DNA from: Allopontixanthobacter sp.
Lineage (GTDB): Bacteria; Pseudomonadota; Alphaproteobacteria; Sphingomonadales; Sphingomonadaceae
NCBI RefSeq assembly: GCF_034376665.1
Contig: NZ_JAXMJI010000067.1
Location: forward strand, 53,048-117,047
Direction of reading: 5' to 3'
DNA: 64,000 nucleotides
The stretch's first letter is position 1; each line of letters begins with the position of its first letter. The notes beneath the pieces are model-generated. The model was not told the DNA's origin. It was given only the letters and a program-made list of their open reading frames with translations, and searched no databases. Shown piece after piece: positions 1,491-57,883 of this stretch. Made by a program: the position numbers and the translations under genes.

Positions 1491-4744
<3,254 letters not shown>

Positions 4745-44959: not shown

Positions 44960-44989
44960 TCGCCCGGCCTGAACGGCTTCGAAAAAAAC

Positions 44990-45015
44990 GGGCGGCATCC
45001 TCGCAGATGCCGCCC
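44990..45015. terminator. Bidirectional Rho-independent terminator
   Basis: Perfect 10-bp stem GGGCGGCATC/GATGCCGCCC with a 6-nt loop. An A7 tract lies on the left (a U-run for the minus-strand gene) and CTTCTTGT lies on the right. Confidence 0.7.
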
Positions 45016-45043
45016 GCTTCTTGTCGCACGCCGGAAGGGTAGC

Positions 45044-46279
45044 TTACGCTGCCTTCCTCCGTCTGAATTTGCGCCGCCCGAGGACTGCTGCCGCGGCGAG
45101 TCCGAACAGGATCGTCATGGGCGGGGCCGGAACCGGGGTGCCGCTGGTCGATCCGTGACCGCCCGAAGTGGTCATTCCGGAAGTGCTCGTCACATTGCCC
45201 GAGGTGGACGATGACGAGGACGAGGAAGTGGACGAGGAGGTCGAACTGCTGGTCGAGGTCGAGCTGGTGACATTGCCCGAGGTCGACGTGCTGGTGGAGA
45301 TGTTGCCCGAGGTGGACGACGAAGTCGAAGAGCTGCTGGAAACACTGCCGGAGGAACTACTCGAGACGTTCCCCGAGGAACTGCTCGAGACGTTGCCGGA
45401 AGTCGAGGAGCTGGCGTTATTGCCGGAACTGCTCGAAACGTTTCCCGAACTGGTCGAAACGTTTCCCGAACTGCTCGAAACGTTACCCGAACTGGTCGAG
45501 GTCGAGGTCGAACTGGTCACACCCCCGGTGGACGTGCTCACCCCTCCGGTCGAAGTAGAGACTCCGCCGGTCGATGTGGAAATCCCGCCAGTGGAGGTGC
45601 TGACGCCGCCGGTCGTGGTCGAACTCCCGCCGGTGGAGGTGGAGGTCGAACTCCCCCCGGTCGAAGTCGAGCTTCCGCCGGTTGACGTCGATGTTGACGT
45701 GCCGCCCGACGAATTATCGATATCGATGATGATGCCGCCGCCCGAAGAGGATGATCCGCTGGTGGAGGTTGAAGTGGTGGAGGTGATATTCACGCTACCG
45801 CCGCTCGAACCGCCGCCGCCGAAAAAGCCCCCGAAGAAGCCGCCGCCAAATCCGCCGCCAAATCCGCCGCTGCCGCCGATCACGGTCACATCACCGCCGC
45901 CGCCGCCCTGAAACGGGGGCAGCGGGGGGAGCGGTGCCGGGACCGCCGCATAAGCCATCCGGTAAGCCGGTGCACAATGTTCGCTGCCCTCGATGATTAC
46001 GCCGTCTGCGCCGCGTGGCAATACGCCGCCCGGGCCGACCGGCTCGCATTCCACCACCCGCCTGACGATGCGGCGCTTGCGCGTGACGGTCTTGGGCACG
46101 CTGCGTTCGGCAGTGCGCTGCTTCACATATTTAACCGGCTGGGCCTTGACCGACTTGCCGGATGCGATGTGCATGCTTGCTGCCGCCGGCTTTTCCGCCA
46201 CATGGACCGCGCCGCCCGCAAGCAGCGCGCCGCCGGCTGCGGTTGCGGACAATTTCGCCAGGGCCATCTTTACCGACAT
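45044..46279 (-). CDS. Secreted Ser/Thr/Gly-rich repetitive protein with a PEP-CTERM-like C-terminal anchor
   Basis: Signal-like N-terminus MSVKMALAKLSATAAGGALLAGGAVHVA. A Gly/Phe block is followed by heptad repeats GGVSTST and SGNVSSS. The tail is PVPAPPMTILFGLAAAAVLGRRKFRRRKAA. Start could be 46279 or 46267. Confidence 0.7.
   Translation of the reverse strand: MSVKMALAKLSATAAGGALLAGGAVHVAEKPAAASMHIASGKSVKAQPVKYVKQRTAERSVPKTVTRKRRIVRRVVECEPVGPGGVLPRGADGVIIEGSEHCAPAYRMAYAAVPAPLPPLPPFQGGGGGDVTVIGGSGGFGGGFGGGFFGGFFGGGGSSGGSVNITSTTSTSTSGSSSSGGGIIIDIDNSSGGTSTSTSTGGSSTSTGGSSTSTSTGGSSTTTGGVSTSTGGISTSTGGVSTSTGGVSTSTGGVTSSTSTSTSSGNVSSSSGNVSTSSGNVSSSSGNNASSSTSGNVSSSSSGNVSSSSSGSVSSSSSTSSSTSGNISTSTSTSGNVTSSTSTSSSTSSSTSSSSSSSTSGNVTSTSGMTTSGGHGSTSGTPVPAPPMTILFGLAAAAVLGRRKFRRRKAA
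45150..45910. repeat. Low-complexity coding repeats with 21-nt periodicity over about 45330-45700
   Basis: A degenerate 21-nt unit ending ..CCGCCGGT.. recurs, encoding GGxSTST. A second 21-nt family encodes SGNVSSS. Confidence 0.8.
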
Positions 46280-46511
46280 GAGCAGGCTCTCTTGTTGCTT
46301 CCGGGTAGCGCGGGTTCCGGCAGCAGCACATCCGCCAGTCCGCACTTCCCTGTCCGGGCAACAGACGTCGGCGCCCGGCAACCCGCAACCGGATTAACCA
46401 TGAATTGAGCCGCTTTGGCGAGATGGGCGGGTCCGGAGTGGCCGCGTCTGGCCGAGATGTCCCACAATGAAACCGATCAGGCAGCAATTCCTGTCCGGCC
46501 TGGCCCCCGCG

Positions 46512-47567
46512 TTAACCTTTGCCGTCGAACAATCCGGTCTGCCGATTCGGTTCTTCGCCCGGTTTGGGGGCTGGCGGCGGGGTCATGTCCAGATGCTGCC
46601 ACGCCAGATCGTTCAGGCACCGCCCCCGCGCGGTGCGGGCGATCAGGCCAAGCTGGATCAGATAGGGTTCGATCACTTCTTCCACCGTGTCGCGCGGTTC
46701 GCTGAGGCCCGCGGCGAGCGTTTCGACGCCCACCGGACCGCCCTTGTAGATCTCCGCGATCATCATCAGATAGCGCCGGTCCATCGCATCGAGGCCCAGC
46801 CGGTCGACCTCCAGCCGGGTCAGCGCCTCGTCCGCAACCTTTGCGGTTACCGACCCGTCCCCCGCCACATGGGCGAAATCGCGCACGCGGCGCATCAGCC
46901 GCCCGGCCACCCGCGGAGTGCCGCGCGCCCGGCGGGCAATCTCGCGCGCGCCGCCCGTTTCGATCTTCATTGCCAGCAGCCCGGCCCCGCGAGTCACCAC
47001 CCGTTCCAGTTCCGCCTCGGTATAGAAATTGAGCCGGACGGGAATGCCGAACCGGTCGCGCAGCGGCGTGGTCAGCAGCCCCTGCCGCGTCGTCGCGCCG
47101 ATCAGGGTGAACGGCGGCAGATCGATCCGGACCGAGCGCGCCGATGGCCCCTCGCCGATGATCAGATCGAGCGCGCGATCCTCCATCGCCGGGTAGAGGA
47201 TCTCCTCCACGACCGGATTGAGCCGGTGGATCTCGTCGATGAACAGAACGTCATGCGGCTCCAGATTGGTCAGCAGCGCGGCCAGATCGCCCGATTTGGC
47301 TATGACCGGGCCGGAAGTGGCGCGGAAACCGACGCCGAGTTCGCGCGCGACGATCTGCGCCAGAGTGGTCTTGCCCAGCCCCGGCGGGCCGAAGAACAAC
47401 ACATGGTCCATCGCCTCCCCACGCCCGCGCGCCGCCTCGATAAACACCCGCAGATTATCCCGCGCCGCCTCCTGCCCGACAAATTCGGCAAGGCTTTTGG
47501 GACGCAGGGCTGCATCCGGATCTTCCGGCTGGCGGTCAGCCGCATGAAGGGGGGTGGGGGAGGTCAT
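46512..47567 (-). CDS. ruvB: Holliday junction branch-migration helicase RuvB
   Basis: 351 aa. Walker [21 protein letters not shown] and the RuvB C-terminal winged helix. Confidence 0.95.
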
Positions 47568-57547: not shown

Positions 57548-57883
57548 CTATTTTCGGCGGCGGGCCCTGACCGCGGCAATGCCCACCCCCAACGCCACCG
57601 ATCCTATCAGGAACGATCCCGGGAAGCCCGGCTCGAGCGGATAATTGCCGCCGCGGCTCCACCGGTCGACCAGATCGATGGCAAAATTGCCGAGATGGAT
57701 CGCGGCAACGAGCAGGAGAAAGGTGGAGCCCAGATTGCGCCAGTCGAGGCCCGGCCAGCCCGTCCGACGGGTCACGAAGGCCTGGATACGGGCCGCGACC
57801 CACACCATCACCAGGATCCAGATGGCCAGTGCCACCAGCGCCAGCAGCGCCCCGGCGGGGGACATGGCGCCTGCGCCCAGCAT
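57548..57883 (-). CDS. Small membrane protein (111 aa) translationally coupled to dut
   Basis: ATG 57883 shares TGATG with the dut stop. About three hydrophobic helices. The C-terminus is PLEPGFPGSFLIGSVALGVGIAAVRARRRK. Confidence 0.5.
   Translation of the reverse strand: MLGAGAMSPAGALLALVALAIWILVMVWVAARIQAFVTRRTGWPGLDWRNLGSTFLLLVAAIHLGNFAIDLVDRWSRGGNYPLEPGFPGSFLIGSVALGVGIAAVRARRRK

What the first reader, a model, noticed from the sequence alone, without database searches (positions are those of the whole stretch)
45044..46279. Mucin-like Ser/Thr/Gly repeat protein with a PEP-CTERM-like sorting tail and no exosortase nearby
The roughly 411-aa product has these parts in order:
- a signal-like N-terminus
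- a basic segment with two Cys
- a Pro-rich stretch (VPAPLPPLPPF)
- a Gly/Phe block (GGFGGGFGGGFFGGFFGGGG)
- about 230 aa made almost only of S, T, G, V and N, organised as heptads (GGVSTST, SGNVSSS; 21-nt DNA period)
- the tail PVPAPP-MTILFGLAAAAVLG-RRKFRRRKAA

The tail has the architecture of a PEP-CTERM/exosortase signal (Pro motif, TM helix, Arg cluster), but PAP replaces PEP.

Such S/T-rich tracts are typical O-glycosylation substrates. 21-nt repeats are prone to slippage, so length variation between strains is likely. No exosortase or glycosyltransferase is present in this window. The gene sits alone between acnA and ruvB, with a strong bidirectional terminator downstream.
Basis: partly seen in the sequence, partly recalled or inferred. 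Interest (0 to 1): 0.62.

Follow-up and report, generated by a model that had tools for sequence, protein, structure and literature searches.

The report
Sphingomonad mucin-like exosortase cargo protein
This is a real gene for a secreted, almost entirely disordered Ser/Thr-rich protein whose tail is a slightly altered PEP-CTERM sorting signal. It appears to be the one conserved cargo of the exosortase A slime-export system found elsewhere in this groundwater sphingomonad's genome.

Summary
Window 45044..46279 (minus strand) encodes a 411-aa protein with exactly the parts described. The gene stands alone between acnA and ruvB and has its own strong terminator.

The gene is real. Orthologues with the same architecture occur across Sphingomonadaceae, and synonymous changes far outnumber non-synonymous ones in the non-repeat ends.

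- The genome encodes a complete XrtA-EpsI exosortase/EPS locus on another contig, plus PrsR and XrtA-system glycosyltransferases.
- The tail ([T/E/D/Q]VPAPP + TM helix + RRK) is near-invariant in 65 of 67 complete orthologues.
- One orthologue carries a canonical VPEPG at that position.
- 25 of 30 orthologous tails reach about the PEP-CTERM model threshold. The window's own scores 15.8 bits against a cutoff of 16.
- Across 151 genomes of the family, the protein tracks XrtA: 83 have both, 2 have the protein only, 18 have XrtA only, 48 have neither. It is absent from all 31 genomes that have only a second exosortase type.

This is the only clear PEP-CTERM-type cargo in this genome. O-glycosylation and surface or EPS attachment are inferred, not shown. 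It is a new, unnamed member of a known kind and of moderate interest.

The parts
45044..46279 (-). Whole gene: 411 codons plus a TAA stop. It encodes the Ser/Thr/Gly-repeat PEP-CTERM-type protein.
   Evidence: define the ORF. Orthologues are found in 16 of 41 relatives and 85 of 151 genomes of the family. Purifying selection is seen in the non-repeat ends.
46193..46279 (-). Residues 1-29, MSVKMALAKLSATAAGGALLAGGAVHVAE. A signal-peptide-like hydrophobic N-terminus that is unusually conserved.
   Evidence: 21 of the 29 positions are invariant in 8 orthologues. AF2 predicts a helix at 3-21. GRAVY is 1.01. Cleavage was not tested.
45908..46192 (-). Residues 30-124. Basic segment (pI 10.3) with Cys78 and Cys102, then a Pro-rich stretch. 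Predicted to be disordered.
   Evidence: Composition. The RKRRIV..EC motif and both Cys are conserved in the close (mostly erythrobacter-type) orthologues aligned. pLDDT is about 50-70 with no secondary structure. There is no Pfam, NCBIfam or PDB relative.
45809..45907 (-). Residues 125-157. Gly/Phe block ..VTVIGGSGGFGGGFGGGFFGGFFGGGG, the most conserved internal element of the family.
   Evidence: G and F columns are invariant in 28 sequences. Metagenome depth is inflated here, which indicates nucleotide-level conservation across co-resident relatives.
45143..45808 (-). Residues 158-379. Ser/Thr/Gly/Val/Asn tract in degenerate heptads (21-nt DNA period), including an IIIDIDNSS island.
   Evidence: Repeat arrays and composition. 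Length differs between species (281-934 aa total). In-frame 21-nt and 63-nt indels occur in related metagenome contigs.
45047..45142 (-). Residues 380-411. The sorting tail: GTPVPAPP motif, TM helix MTILFGLAAAAVLG, and basic cluster RRKFRRRKAA.
   Evidence: HMM scores. V, P, P, L, F and R columns are invariant in 30 orthologues. This is the highest hydrophobicity window in the protein.
45119..45133 (-). VPAPP motif (V383-P387), the position equivalent to the PEP of PEP-CTERM.
   Evidence: 65 of 67 complete orthologues have VP[AE]P[PG] here. L025 has VPEPG, and L060 and L068 have VPAPG.
44982..45016 (.). Bidirectional intrinsic terminator shared with acnA. It has a U7 tail on the minus-strand transcript.
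   Evidence: -38.7 kcal/mol, z = -5.28, and 0 of 200 shuffles fold as well.
46280..46511 (-). 232-nt non-coding leader and promoter region between the ruvB stop and the start codon. It holds conserved blocks A (46458-46475, CGGTTTCATTGTGGGACA), B (46385-46401, ATGGTTAATCCGGTTGC) and C (46343-46354, GACAGGGAAGTG), plus an AAGAGAG ribosome-binding site.
   Evidence: Alignment of 17 upstream regions from several genera. No canonical sigma-54 -24/-12 element was found. No Rfam family matches.

Best explanation
The gene encodes an exported, non-globular, mucin-like protein that is a cargo of the exosortase A (XrtA) / PEP-CTERM system.

Proposed mechanism:
1. The N-terminal hydrophobic segment takes the protein through Sec.
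2. The C-terminal helix, with RRKFRRRK on the cytoplasmic side, holds the protein in the inner membrane. The VPAPP motif then sits at the periplasmic face.
3. XrtA-EpsI, encoded on contig C88, recognises and cleaves at this PEP-equivalent motif. It passes the protein on to an as yet unknown acceptor of the co-produced exopolysaccharide or outer surface.
4. The 222-residue Ser/Thr tract is most likely O-glycosylated and acts as an extended stalk or spacer whose length drifts in 21-nt units.
5. The basic segment and the Gly/Phe block at the mature N-terminus are the likely interaction or cohesion end.

Shown here:
- The gene is real and conserved.
- The tail is homologous to PEP-CTERM.
- XrtA and its EPS locus are present in the genome.
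- The protein co-occurs with XrtA across genomes.
- Repeat length varies.

Inferred, not shown:
- Signal-peptide cleavage.
- Cleavage by XrtA.
- Glycosylation.
- Final location and role in the matrix.
For: **Machinery in the genome**
- XrtA-EpsI scores 320.9 bits against TIGR03109 (cutoff 208).
- Its neighbours all match XrtA-system models. The stp1 glycosyltransferase, amidotransferase, FemAB, deacetylase, ATPase, chain-length determinant, exporter, decarboxylase and acyl-CoA ligase score above their cutoffs; the outer-membrane protein and the tyrosine kinase match below theirs.
- PrsR scores 661.7 bits (cutoff 502.6).
- An stp3 glycosyltransferase (600 bits) sits beside a Wzy_C homologue of the 'O-glycosylation ligase, exosortase A-associated' family (168.9 bits, cutoff 188.1).

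**The tail**
- PEP-CTERM is the best-matching sorting-domain model. The window's tail scores 14.2-15.8 bits against 16. 28 of 30 orthologous tails match at E <= 1 and 25 of 30 at E <= 0.015; the best is 6.7e-8.
- The orthologue in Alteraurantiacibacter aquimixticola has a canonical KVPEPGMLLLFGAGAGAVFMRRRRR at the same position.
- The motif residues are more conserved than the helix residues.

**Phylogenetic profile (151 genomes of the family)**
- 83 genomes have both the protein and XrtA, 2 have the protein only, 18 have XrtA only and 48 have neither. Fisher p = 8e-22, not corrected for phylogeny.
- None of the 31 genomes with only the other exosortase type has the protein.
- Three genera (g46, g61, g62) each contain one genome with both and one with neither.
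- Of the two exceptions, one copy carries an in-frame TAG and a deletion in the Gly/Phe block (G064). The other is from a genome that is 76% complete.

**Gene organisation**
- It is a single-gene unit with 232 nt of upstream non-coding DNA and its own terminator. Haft et al. 2006 (PMC1569441) describe this layout for most PEP-CTERM genes.

**Composition**
- The Ser/Thr/Asn enrichment is the trend that paper reports for PEP-CTERM proteins, taken to an extreme.

**Sole cargo**
- This is the only ORF in the genome with a Pro-motif + TM + basic C-terminus.
Against: - The Glu of the near-invariant PEP is Ala here.
- The whole protein gives no hit to any Pfam or NCBIfam model.
- The isolated tail is just under both curated cutoffs: TIGR02595 15.8 against 16, and PF07589 14.2 against 20.7.
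- No canonical sigma-54 -24/-12 promoter was found upstream, although PrsR is present. The conserved TGGTTAA-N5-TTGC block has GG and GC one base too far apart.
- The gene is never near the XrtA locus in 58 loci.
- 18 XrtA-positive genomes lack the protein, so XrtA does not depend on it.
- No experimental or transcript data exist for this organism. It is a groundwater metagenome-assembled genome, and only DNA runs hold its sequence.
- The co-occurrence statistic is not phylogenetically corrected.
- The N-terminal 29 residues are far more conserved than ordinary signal peptides. They may do more than target the protein to Sec.
Confidence: 0.78

Rival explanations
1. The tail is only a C-terminal membrane anchor. 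The protein would be a type I inner-membrane protein whose Ser/Thr stalk projects the basic and Gly/Phe end into the periplasm, with no exosortase cleavage.
For: - The tail misses the curated PEP-CTERM cutoffs and lacks the Glu.
- The gene is never linked to the XrtA locus.
- One genus (g56) keeps the gene without any detectable exosortase.
Against: - The VPAPP motif is more invariant than the helix itself.
- One orthologue has a canonical VPEPG.
- 25 of 30 orthologous tails reach about the PEP-CTERM threshold.
- 83 of 85 genomes with the protein have XrtA, and none of the 31 genomes with only the other exosortase has it.
- One of the two g56 copies looks like a pseudogene.
Confidence: 0.13
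2. The tail is a genuine sorting signal, but it is read by a different, unidentified processing enzyme rather than by XrtA.
For: - The motif differs from PEP.
- Weak sub-threshold matches also occur to the PGAP-CTERM, PID-CTERM and MYXO-CTERM models.
- Named variant signals (VPLPA-, VPDSG-CTERM) have their own exosortase subtypes. This rests on the NCBIfam model names seen and on general knowledge.
Against: - The own genome has exactly one exosortase-family gene, and it is XrtA.
- The profile follows XrtA, not the second exosortase type.
- PEP-CTERM is the sorting-domain model that most orthologous tails match (25 of 30 at E <= 0.015) and gives the best E-value.
Confidence: 0.06
3. The minus-strand ORF is an artefact of a GC-rich repeat, and either the plus-strand ORF 45168..45911 or nothing is expressed.
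For: - The two frames share third codon positions, so GC3 cannot tell them apart (read directly from the sequence).
- The protein collections hold no full-length relative: the word-based search found nothing and the exhaustive search only short fragments.
Against: - The plus-strand ORF covers only the repeat and Gly/Phe part.
- The flanking N-terminal and tail codons of the minus-strand frame are conserved across genera with a large excess of synonymous changes.
- All indels between relatives are multiples of 21 nt.
- The terminator with U7 serves the minus strand.
Confidence: 0.02

Closest known systems
PEP-CTERM / exosortase A (XrtA-EpsH) protein-sorting system (Haft et al. 2006, PMC1569441; TIGR02595, TIGR03109)
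   Same: - It has an N-terminal export signal and a C-terminal Pro motif + about 14-residue helix + Arg/Lys cluster at the very end.
- It is a single-gene unit with more than 200 nt of upstream non-coding DNA.
- It is rich in Ser/Thr/Asn and has no recognisable domains.
- XrtA, EpsI, PrsR and the XrtA-type EPS genes are all in the genome.
- It co-occurs with XrtA across genomes.
   Different: - Glu of PEP is Ala (VPAPP), fixed across the family.
- The tail scores just under the curated cutoff here.
- No canonical sigma-54 promoter was detected.
- The genome has only this one clear cargo, plus a 61-aa mini-protein, whereas the paper reports a median of eight.
Flocculation-associated PEP-CTERM protein PepA (NF033554) and the cistern-family PEP-CTERM protein (NF033947)
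   Same: These were the best whole-model matches for the tail region. They are secreted, low-complexity XrtA cargos linked to exopolysaccharide and floc formation. Their function is taken from the NCBIfam family names and from the title and abstract of PMC9850573 as listed; I did not read that paper.
   Different: Only the last 30-40 residues align, at 12-17 bits against cutoffs of 60-80. The rest of the protein is unrelated, so this is not a member of either family.
Variant exosortase signals with dedicated enzymes (VPLPA-CTERM/XrtD, VPDSG-CTERM/XrtC, PGAP-CTERM, PID-CTERM)
   Same: They share a Val-Pro-initiated variant motif followed by a helix and a basic cluster.
   Different: - This genome has no XrtC or XrtD. 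Its only exosortase passes the XrtA cutoff and fails the XrtC, XrtD, XrtB, XrtV and XrtW cutoffs.
- The PGAP-CTERM and PID-CTERM models score only about 11 bits against cutoffs of 25-26.
Eukaryotic and bacterial mucin-like Ser/Thr-repeat surface glycoproteins
   Same: It has a long Ser/Thr tract (66% S+T) with a short tandem period, predicted disorder, and repeat number that varies between relatives.
   Different: Glycosylation is not shown. The resemblance is in composition only, and there is no sequence homology.

Membership tests
PEP-CTERM sorting domain (TIGR02595 / PF07589) | Score at or above the curated HMM cutoff | tested here: inconclusive
   The window's tail scores 14.2-15.8 bits against 16 (TIGR02595) and 14.2 against 20.7 (PF07589). 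The whole protein gives no hit. 25 of 30 orthologous tails match at E <= 0.015, the best at 6.7e-8.
PEP-CTERM sorting domain (TIGR02595 / PF07589) | Near-invariant Pro-Glu-Pro motif | tested here: not met
   The motif is Pro-Ala-Pro (VPAPP) here and in 62 of 65 motif-bearing orthologues. One orthologue has VPEPG and two have VPAPG.
PEP-CTERM sorting domain (TIGR02595 / PF07589) | Hydrophobic helix of about 14 residues followed by a basic cluster, at the extreme C-terminus | tested here: met
   The tail reads MTILFGLAAAAVLG then RRKFRRRKAA-stop. This is the strongest hydrophobic window of the protein.
PEP-CTERM sorting domain (TIGR02595 / PF07589) | N-terminal signal peptide | tested here: inconclusive
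   There is a hydrophobic N-terminus with two Lys before it, and AF2 predicts a helix at 3-21. No signal-peptide predictor was available, and the cleavage site (after GGA or after VHVA) is undetermined.
PEP-CTERM sorting domain (TIGR02595 / PF07589) | An exosortase (EpsH family) in the same genome, and co-occurrence with it across genomes | tested here: met
   XrtA is on contig C88. The 83/2/18/48 table over 151 genomes comes.
Proteobacterial XrtA/PrsK-PrsR-regulated PEP-CTERM genes (Haft 2006) | Single-gene operon with more than 200 nt of upstream non-coding DNA | tested here: met
   The leader is 232 nt, the gene has its own terminator, and it is convergent with acnA.
Proteobacterial XrtA/PrsK-PrsR-regulated PEP-CTERM genes (Haft 2006) | Upstream sigma-54 -24(GG)/-12(GC) motif and an enhancer motif | tested here: not met
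   No conserved GG-N10-GC element was found in 34 upstream regions. In the conserved TGGTTAA-N5-TTGC block, GG and GC are one base too far apart. PrsR itself is present.
XrtA (type 1) exosortase EPS system | XrtA with EpsI, plus the associated glycosyltransferases, amidotransferase, FemAB, deacetylase, ATPase, chain-length determinant, kinase, exporter and PrsR | tested here: met
   Most of these score above their curated cutoffs. The tyrosine kinase, the outer-membrane protein and the Wzy_C ligase homologue are below cutoff.
Mucin-like O-glycoprotein | O-linked glycans on the Ser/Thr tract | not testable with these tools
   Only the composition (66% S+T) and candidate enzymes elsewhere in the genome are available.

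The most novel reading that the evidence does not exclude
In small-genome sphingomonads that have XrtA as their only exosortase, this single-copy VPAPP protein may be the dedicated, near-sole cargo of XrtA. That would give a natural one-enzyme, one-substrate exosortase A system.

The fixed Glu-to-Ala change would then show that the Glu of PEP is not needed for XrtA recognition or catalysis.

The mature product would be a bacterial proteoglycan- or mucin-like core. A glycosylated Ser/Thr stalk would be covalently joined through its C-terminus to the XrtA-locus polysaccharide or to the glycosphingolipid outer membrane. The basic and Gly/Phe end would cross-link the matrix.
Probability: 0.3. Interest if true: 0.65.

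Novelty: new member of a known kind. Interest (0 to 1): 0.4.

Why it matters
What exosortase A does to its cargos, where it cuts and what it attaches them to remain unknown twenty years after the system was predicted. One reason is that typical XrtA organisms carry many dissimilar cargos.

This family offers a simpler test case:
- It is a single, strongly conserved, syntenic cargo.
- Orthologues occur in culturable genera (Erythrobacter, Tsuneonella, Pontixanthobacter, Novosphingobium, Sphingopyxis).
- In this genome it is the only clear PEP-CTERM-type ORF, and other genomes of its genus carry only 2-5 PEP-CTERM-type hits, except one that also has the second exosortase (13).
- It carries a natural Glu-to-Ala variant of the signal.

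Together these make a convenient genetic handle for mapping the cleavage site, the acceptor and any glycosylation.

There is also a practical point. Whole-protein HMM scans miss the tail, the protein collections searched held only short N-terminal fragments of it, and short-read contigs break inside it. It is therefore probably under-annotated.

Tried and rejected
- **Word-based protein search.** A search of 5.8 billion proteins with residues 1-125 found nothing.
- **Exhaustive representative search.** It gave only 86 short fragments of 48-301 aa and no full-length or named relative.
- **Family and structure searches.** Pfam and NCBIfam on the whole protein and on the N-terminal 157 aa gave no family. 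A PDB profile search gave only low-complexity noise.
- **AF2.** A prediction of residues 1-162 with 28 sequences gave mean pLDDT 54.6 and only the N-terminal helix, so I made no fold search.
- **Rfam.** The gene and leader gave nothing credible.
- **Sigma-54 promoter.** No conserved canonical site was found in 34 upstream regions.
- **Regulon search.** A genome-wide search for the conserved upstream blocks gave only noise.
- **Linkage to the XrtA locus.** tblastn of 14 XrtA-locus proteins against 58 family loci (±6 kb) gave no hit.
- **Other tails in this genome.** Two heuristics and a family-specific HMM found no other credible ORF of the same kind.
- **Literature.** No paper in the held library links PEP-CTERM to a sphingomonad genus.
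- **Lipoprotein idea.** I considered a lipoprotein because of the LSAC/LCAC near residue 10 in the Novosphingobium and Sphingomonas orthologues. I rejected it because the Cys is absent here and the preceding segment is too short for a lipoprotein signal.
- **XrtA tree.** I considered comparing XrtA from genomes with and without the protein. I dropped it because it would mostly mirror the species tree.
Full report
**1. The observation**

Window 45044..46279 (minus strand) is an open frame of 411 codons from ATG 46279. Every orthologue starts with the same MSVKMALAKL, so this ATG is the start rather than the upstream TTG at 46381.

- A hydrophobic N-terminus (residues 1-29, GRAVY 1.0).
- A basic segment (30-124, pI 10.3) with Cys78 and Cys102 and a Pro-rich end.
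- A Gly/Phe block (125-157; 21 Gly, 6 Phe).
- A 222-residue tract that is 94.6% Ser/Thr/Gly/Val/Asn and 66% Ser+Thr.
- The tail GTPVPAPP-MTILFGLAAAAVLG-RRKFRRRKAA.

Tandem Repeats Finder reports 21-nt arrays at 45426-45499 (92% matches), 45540-45643 and 45638-45691. Gly positions autocorrelate at lag 7. The repeats are degenerate.

The gene lies between acnA (plus strand, ends 44959) and ruvB (minus strand, 46512-47567). A hairpin at 44989-45016 folds at -38.7 kcal/mol (z = -5.3). It is followed by seven U on the minus-strand transcript.

**2. Is it a gene, and on which strand?**

The plus-strand ORF 45168..45911 shares third codon positions with the minus-strand frame, so GC3 cannot decide between them. 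Conservation does decide.
- A 125-residue N-terminal query finds open frames of 333-516 aa in 8 of 9 genomes of the same genus and 7 of 15 other genera of the family. It finds none in other families of the order.
- The translated orthologues have all the same parts in the same order.
- In the first 31 codons, the eight same-genus orthologues (L003-L009) and L010 from a neighbouring genus differ from the window by 8-14 synonymous and 0-3 non-synonymous codon changes. In the last 31 codons the counts are 8-14 and 3-8.
- These conserved ends lie outside the plus-strand ORF.
- In metagenome contigs of close relatives, the indels in the repeat tract are 21 nt, 21 nt and a net 63 nt, all in frame.

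The minus-strand gene is real.

**3. Distribution**

A pattern scan of one genome per species returned 58 loci. All but two carry a Sphingomonadaceae sensu lato name or an unclassified Alpha-/Pseudomonadota label; one MAG is labelled Marinomonas sp. Genera include Tsuneonella, Pontixanthobacter, Qipengyuania, Altererythrobacter, Erythrobacter, Porphyrobacter, Citromicrobium, Novosphingobium, Sphingopyxis, Sphingomonas, Sphingorhabdus and Allosphingosinicella.

Protein length ranges from 281 to 934 aa, and almost all of the difference is in the Ser/Thr tract.

In most of the loci from the erythrobacter-type genera and in several Novosphingobium loci, the gene sits in the same place: ruvA-ruvB-X, convergent with acnA. 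In Sphingomonas, Sphingopyxis and Allosphingosinicella it sits in a different but also conserved set of unrelated neighbours, which I read from their N-termini, without an HMM check, as a DksA-like gene upstream and serS and surE downstream. It is never within 6 kb of an XrtA-locus gene. It is single-copy per genome.

The window's organism is a groundwater metagenome-assembled genome (2.75 Mb, 62% GC).

**4. The tail**

Of 67 complete orthologues, 65 end in [T/E/D/Q]-V-P-[A/E]-P-[P/G], then a helix (M x x L F G x A A A A ...), then an Arg/Lys cluster. In a 30-sequence alignment V, P, P, L, F and the first R are invariant, and A, P, M and G are at least 90% conserved. The motif is therefore more constrained than a plain anchor requires.

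The orthologue of Alteraurantiacibacter aquimixticola has KVPEPGMLLLFGAGAGAVFMRRRRR, a textbook PEP-CTERM, at the same position. Two others have VPAPG.

HMM results:
- Against NCBIfam, the window's isolated tail matches PEP-CTERM best among the sorting-domain models, at 14.2-15.8 bits against a cutoff of 16.
- PGAP-CTERM, PID-CTERM and MYXO-CTERM all score lower.
- Pfam PF07589 gives 14.2 bits against 20.7.
- Of 30 orthologous tails, 28 match TIGR02595 at E <= 1 and 25 at E <= 0.015, the best at 6.7e-8.
- The whole protein gives no hit at all, presumably because of its low-complexity composition. That may be why it goes unnamed.

**5. The machinery**

The genome has exactly one exosortase-family gene. 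It is an XrtA-EpsI fusion of 521 aa. It scores 320.9 bits against TIGR03109 (cutoff 208) and 91 bits against EpsI. It is below cutoff for XrtB, C, D, V and W.

Around it on contig C88 is the canonical XrtA EPS locus:
- stp1 glycosyltransferase
- XrtA-system amidotransferase
- FemAB-family protein
- polysaccharide deacetylase
- ATPase
- outer-membrane protein
- tyrosine kinase
- chain-length determinant
- exporter
- PLP decarboxylase
- acyl-CoA ligase

Most of these score above their curated cutoffs; the outer-membrane protein and the tyrosine kinase are below theirs.

PrsR, the sigma-54-dependent response regulator of the system, is on contig C70 at 661.7 bits (cutoff 502.6). On contig C100, an stp3 XrtA-system glycosyltransferase (600 bits) sits beside a Wzy_C protein. 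That protein matches the 'putative O-glycosylation ligase, exosortase A system-associated' model over its full length at 168.9 bits, just under the cutoff of 188.1.

**6. Phylogenetic profile**

I scored the same 151 genomes of the family for the protein, for any exosortase and for XrtA. XrtA separates cleanly from a second, shorter exosortase type: E < 1e-76 and above cutoff for XrtA, against about 130-158 bits for the other type.

| | XrtA present | XrtA absent |
|---|---|---|
| Protein present | 83 | 2 |
| Protein absent | 18 | 48 |

- Fisher p = 8e-22, not corrected for shared ancestry.
- None of the 31 genomes that have only the second exosortase has the protein.
- Three genera (g46, g61, g62) each hold one genome with both and one with neither. 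No genus shows the protein both with and without XrtA.
- The two exceptions belong to one genus (g56). One copy has an in-frame TAG at codon 45 and has lost part of the Gly/Phe block. The other is from a genome that is 76% complete.

**7. Is it the only cargo?**

In the window's genome, a six-frame TIGR02595 search gives two hits at E <= 10: this tail, and a 61-aa signal-peptide mini-protein after hisF on contig C4 (16.8-17.2 bits). Two independent heuristics and a family-specific tail HMM find no other credible ORF with a Pro motif, helix and basic end.

Other genomes of the same genus have 2-5 PEP-CTERM-model hits at E <= 1. The exception (13 hits) also carries the second exosortase, with its hits clustered beside it. 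Genomes of two sister genera that lack this protein, one with XrtA and one with only the second exosortase, have 39-50. The median in Haft et al. 2006 is eight.

**8. Structure and regulation**

AF2 on residues 1-162 with 28 sequences gives mean pLDDT 54.6. The only secondary structure is a helix at 3-21. The mature protein is most likely non-globular throughout.

The first 29 residues are strikingly conserved: 21 are invariant among eight orthologues from four genera. That is more than a signal peptide normally is, and I cannot explain it.

The 232-nt leader has blocks conserved across genera:
- Block A, CGGTTTCATTGTGGGACA
- Block B, ATGGTTAAynnGATTGC
- Block C, GACAGGGAAGTG
- A small hairpin (CGGAnnCGCCG), whose stem appears, by eye in the alignment, to keep pairing through compensatory changes. 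I ran no structure test on it.

Block B looks like a sigma-54 site, but GG and GC are one base too far apart. No canonical -24/-12 site is conserved. The regulatory link to PrsR therefore remains open.

**9. Verdict**

The finding is a genuine, conserved PEP-CTERM-type cargo of exosortase A with a fixed Glu-to-Ala variant of the signal. It belongs to an unnamed, sphingomonad-wide protein family.

Its 'no exosortase nearby' is true only of the window.

Processing by XrtA (confidence about 0.8), O-glycosylation and the final location are inferences. The kind of system is known, and this family and its near-exclusive pairing with XrtA in small-genome sphingomonads are what is new. Interest is moderate.

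Noticed in passing
G000 contig C4, about 2060-2245 (minus strand); locus L073: A 61-aa ORF directly after hisF: MISRLLILAHMVLAAPASAADGIQISEPSNLALMGLGLAGLIIGRHTARSKRSRDDRAPKD. It is a signal peptide followed almost at once by a PEP-CTERM-like tail (TIGR02595 16.8-17.2 bits, at cutoff). It is the only other candidate XrtA cargo in this genome.
   Followed up: partly
window 57548-57883 (minus strand): A 111-aa multi-helix membrane protein after dut that ends in ..NYPLEPGFPGSFLIGSVALGVGIAAVRARRRK. The genome-wide PEP-CTERM HMM search (E <= 10) and my tail HMM did not pick it up, so support for a sorting role is weak.
   Followed up: partly
window 46280-46511: The ruvB-to-gene leader holds sequence blocks conserved across several genera (A 46458-46475, B 46385-46401, C 46343-46354). 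It also holds a short hairpin (CGGAnnCGCCG) whose stem appears, by eye, to keep pairing through compensatory changes. Block B resembles a sigma-54 site with GG and GC one base too far apart. Function unknown.
   Followed up: partly
related genomes, e.g. G007:C2:700794-701558 and G012, G015: Many Sphingomonadaceae carry a second exosortase of about 300-350 aa. It scores 130-158 bits against the XrtA model, below cutoff. It goes with many canonical PEP-CTERM hits (13-50 per genome). In G007 these cluster within about 30 kb of that exosortase.
   Followed up: no
L076 (G064:C155:16500-18700): The orthologue in a genome with no detectable exosortase has an in-frame TAG at codon 45 and lacks FFGGFFGG of the Gly/Phe block. 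This may be decay after loss of XrtA, or an error in the metagenome assembly.
   Followed up: partly
window 45736-45883: In the source metagenomes, contigs break at the Gly/Phe block, where summed contig depth rises from about 33 to 100-200. The protein collections hold only short N-terminal fragments of the family. The gene therefore seems to be poorly assembled and seldom called in full in short-read data.
   Followed up: partly
G000 contig C100, 13878-15143 and the adjacent gene; locus L078: A divergent gene pair. One is a Wzy_C protein close to the 'O-glycosylation ligase, exosortase A-associated' model (168.9 bits against 188.1). The other is an stp3 XrtA-system glycosyltransferase (600 bits). 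The pair lies apart from the main XrtA locus.
   Followed up: partly
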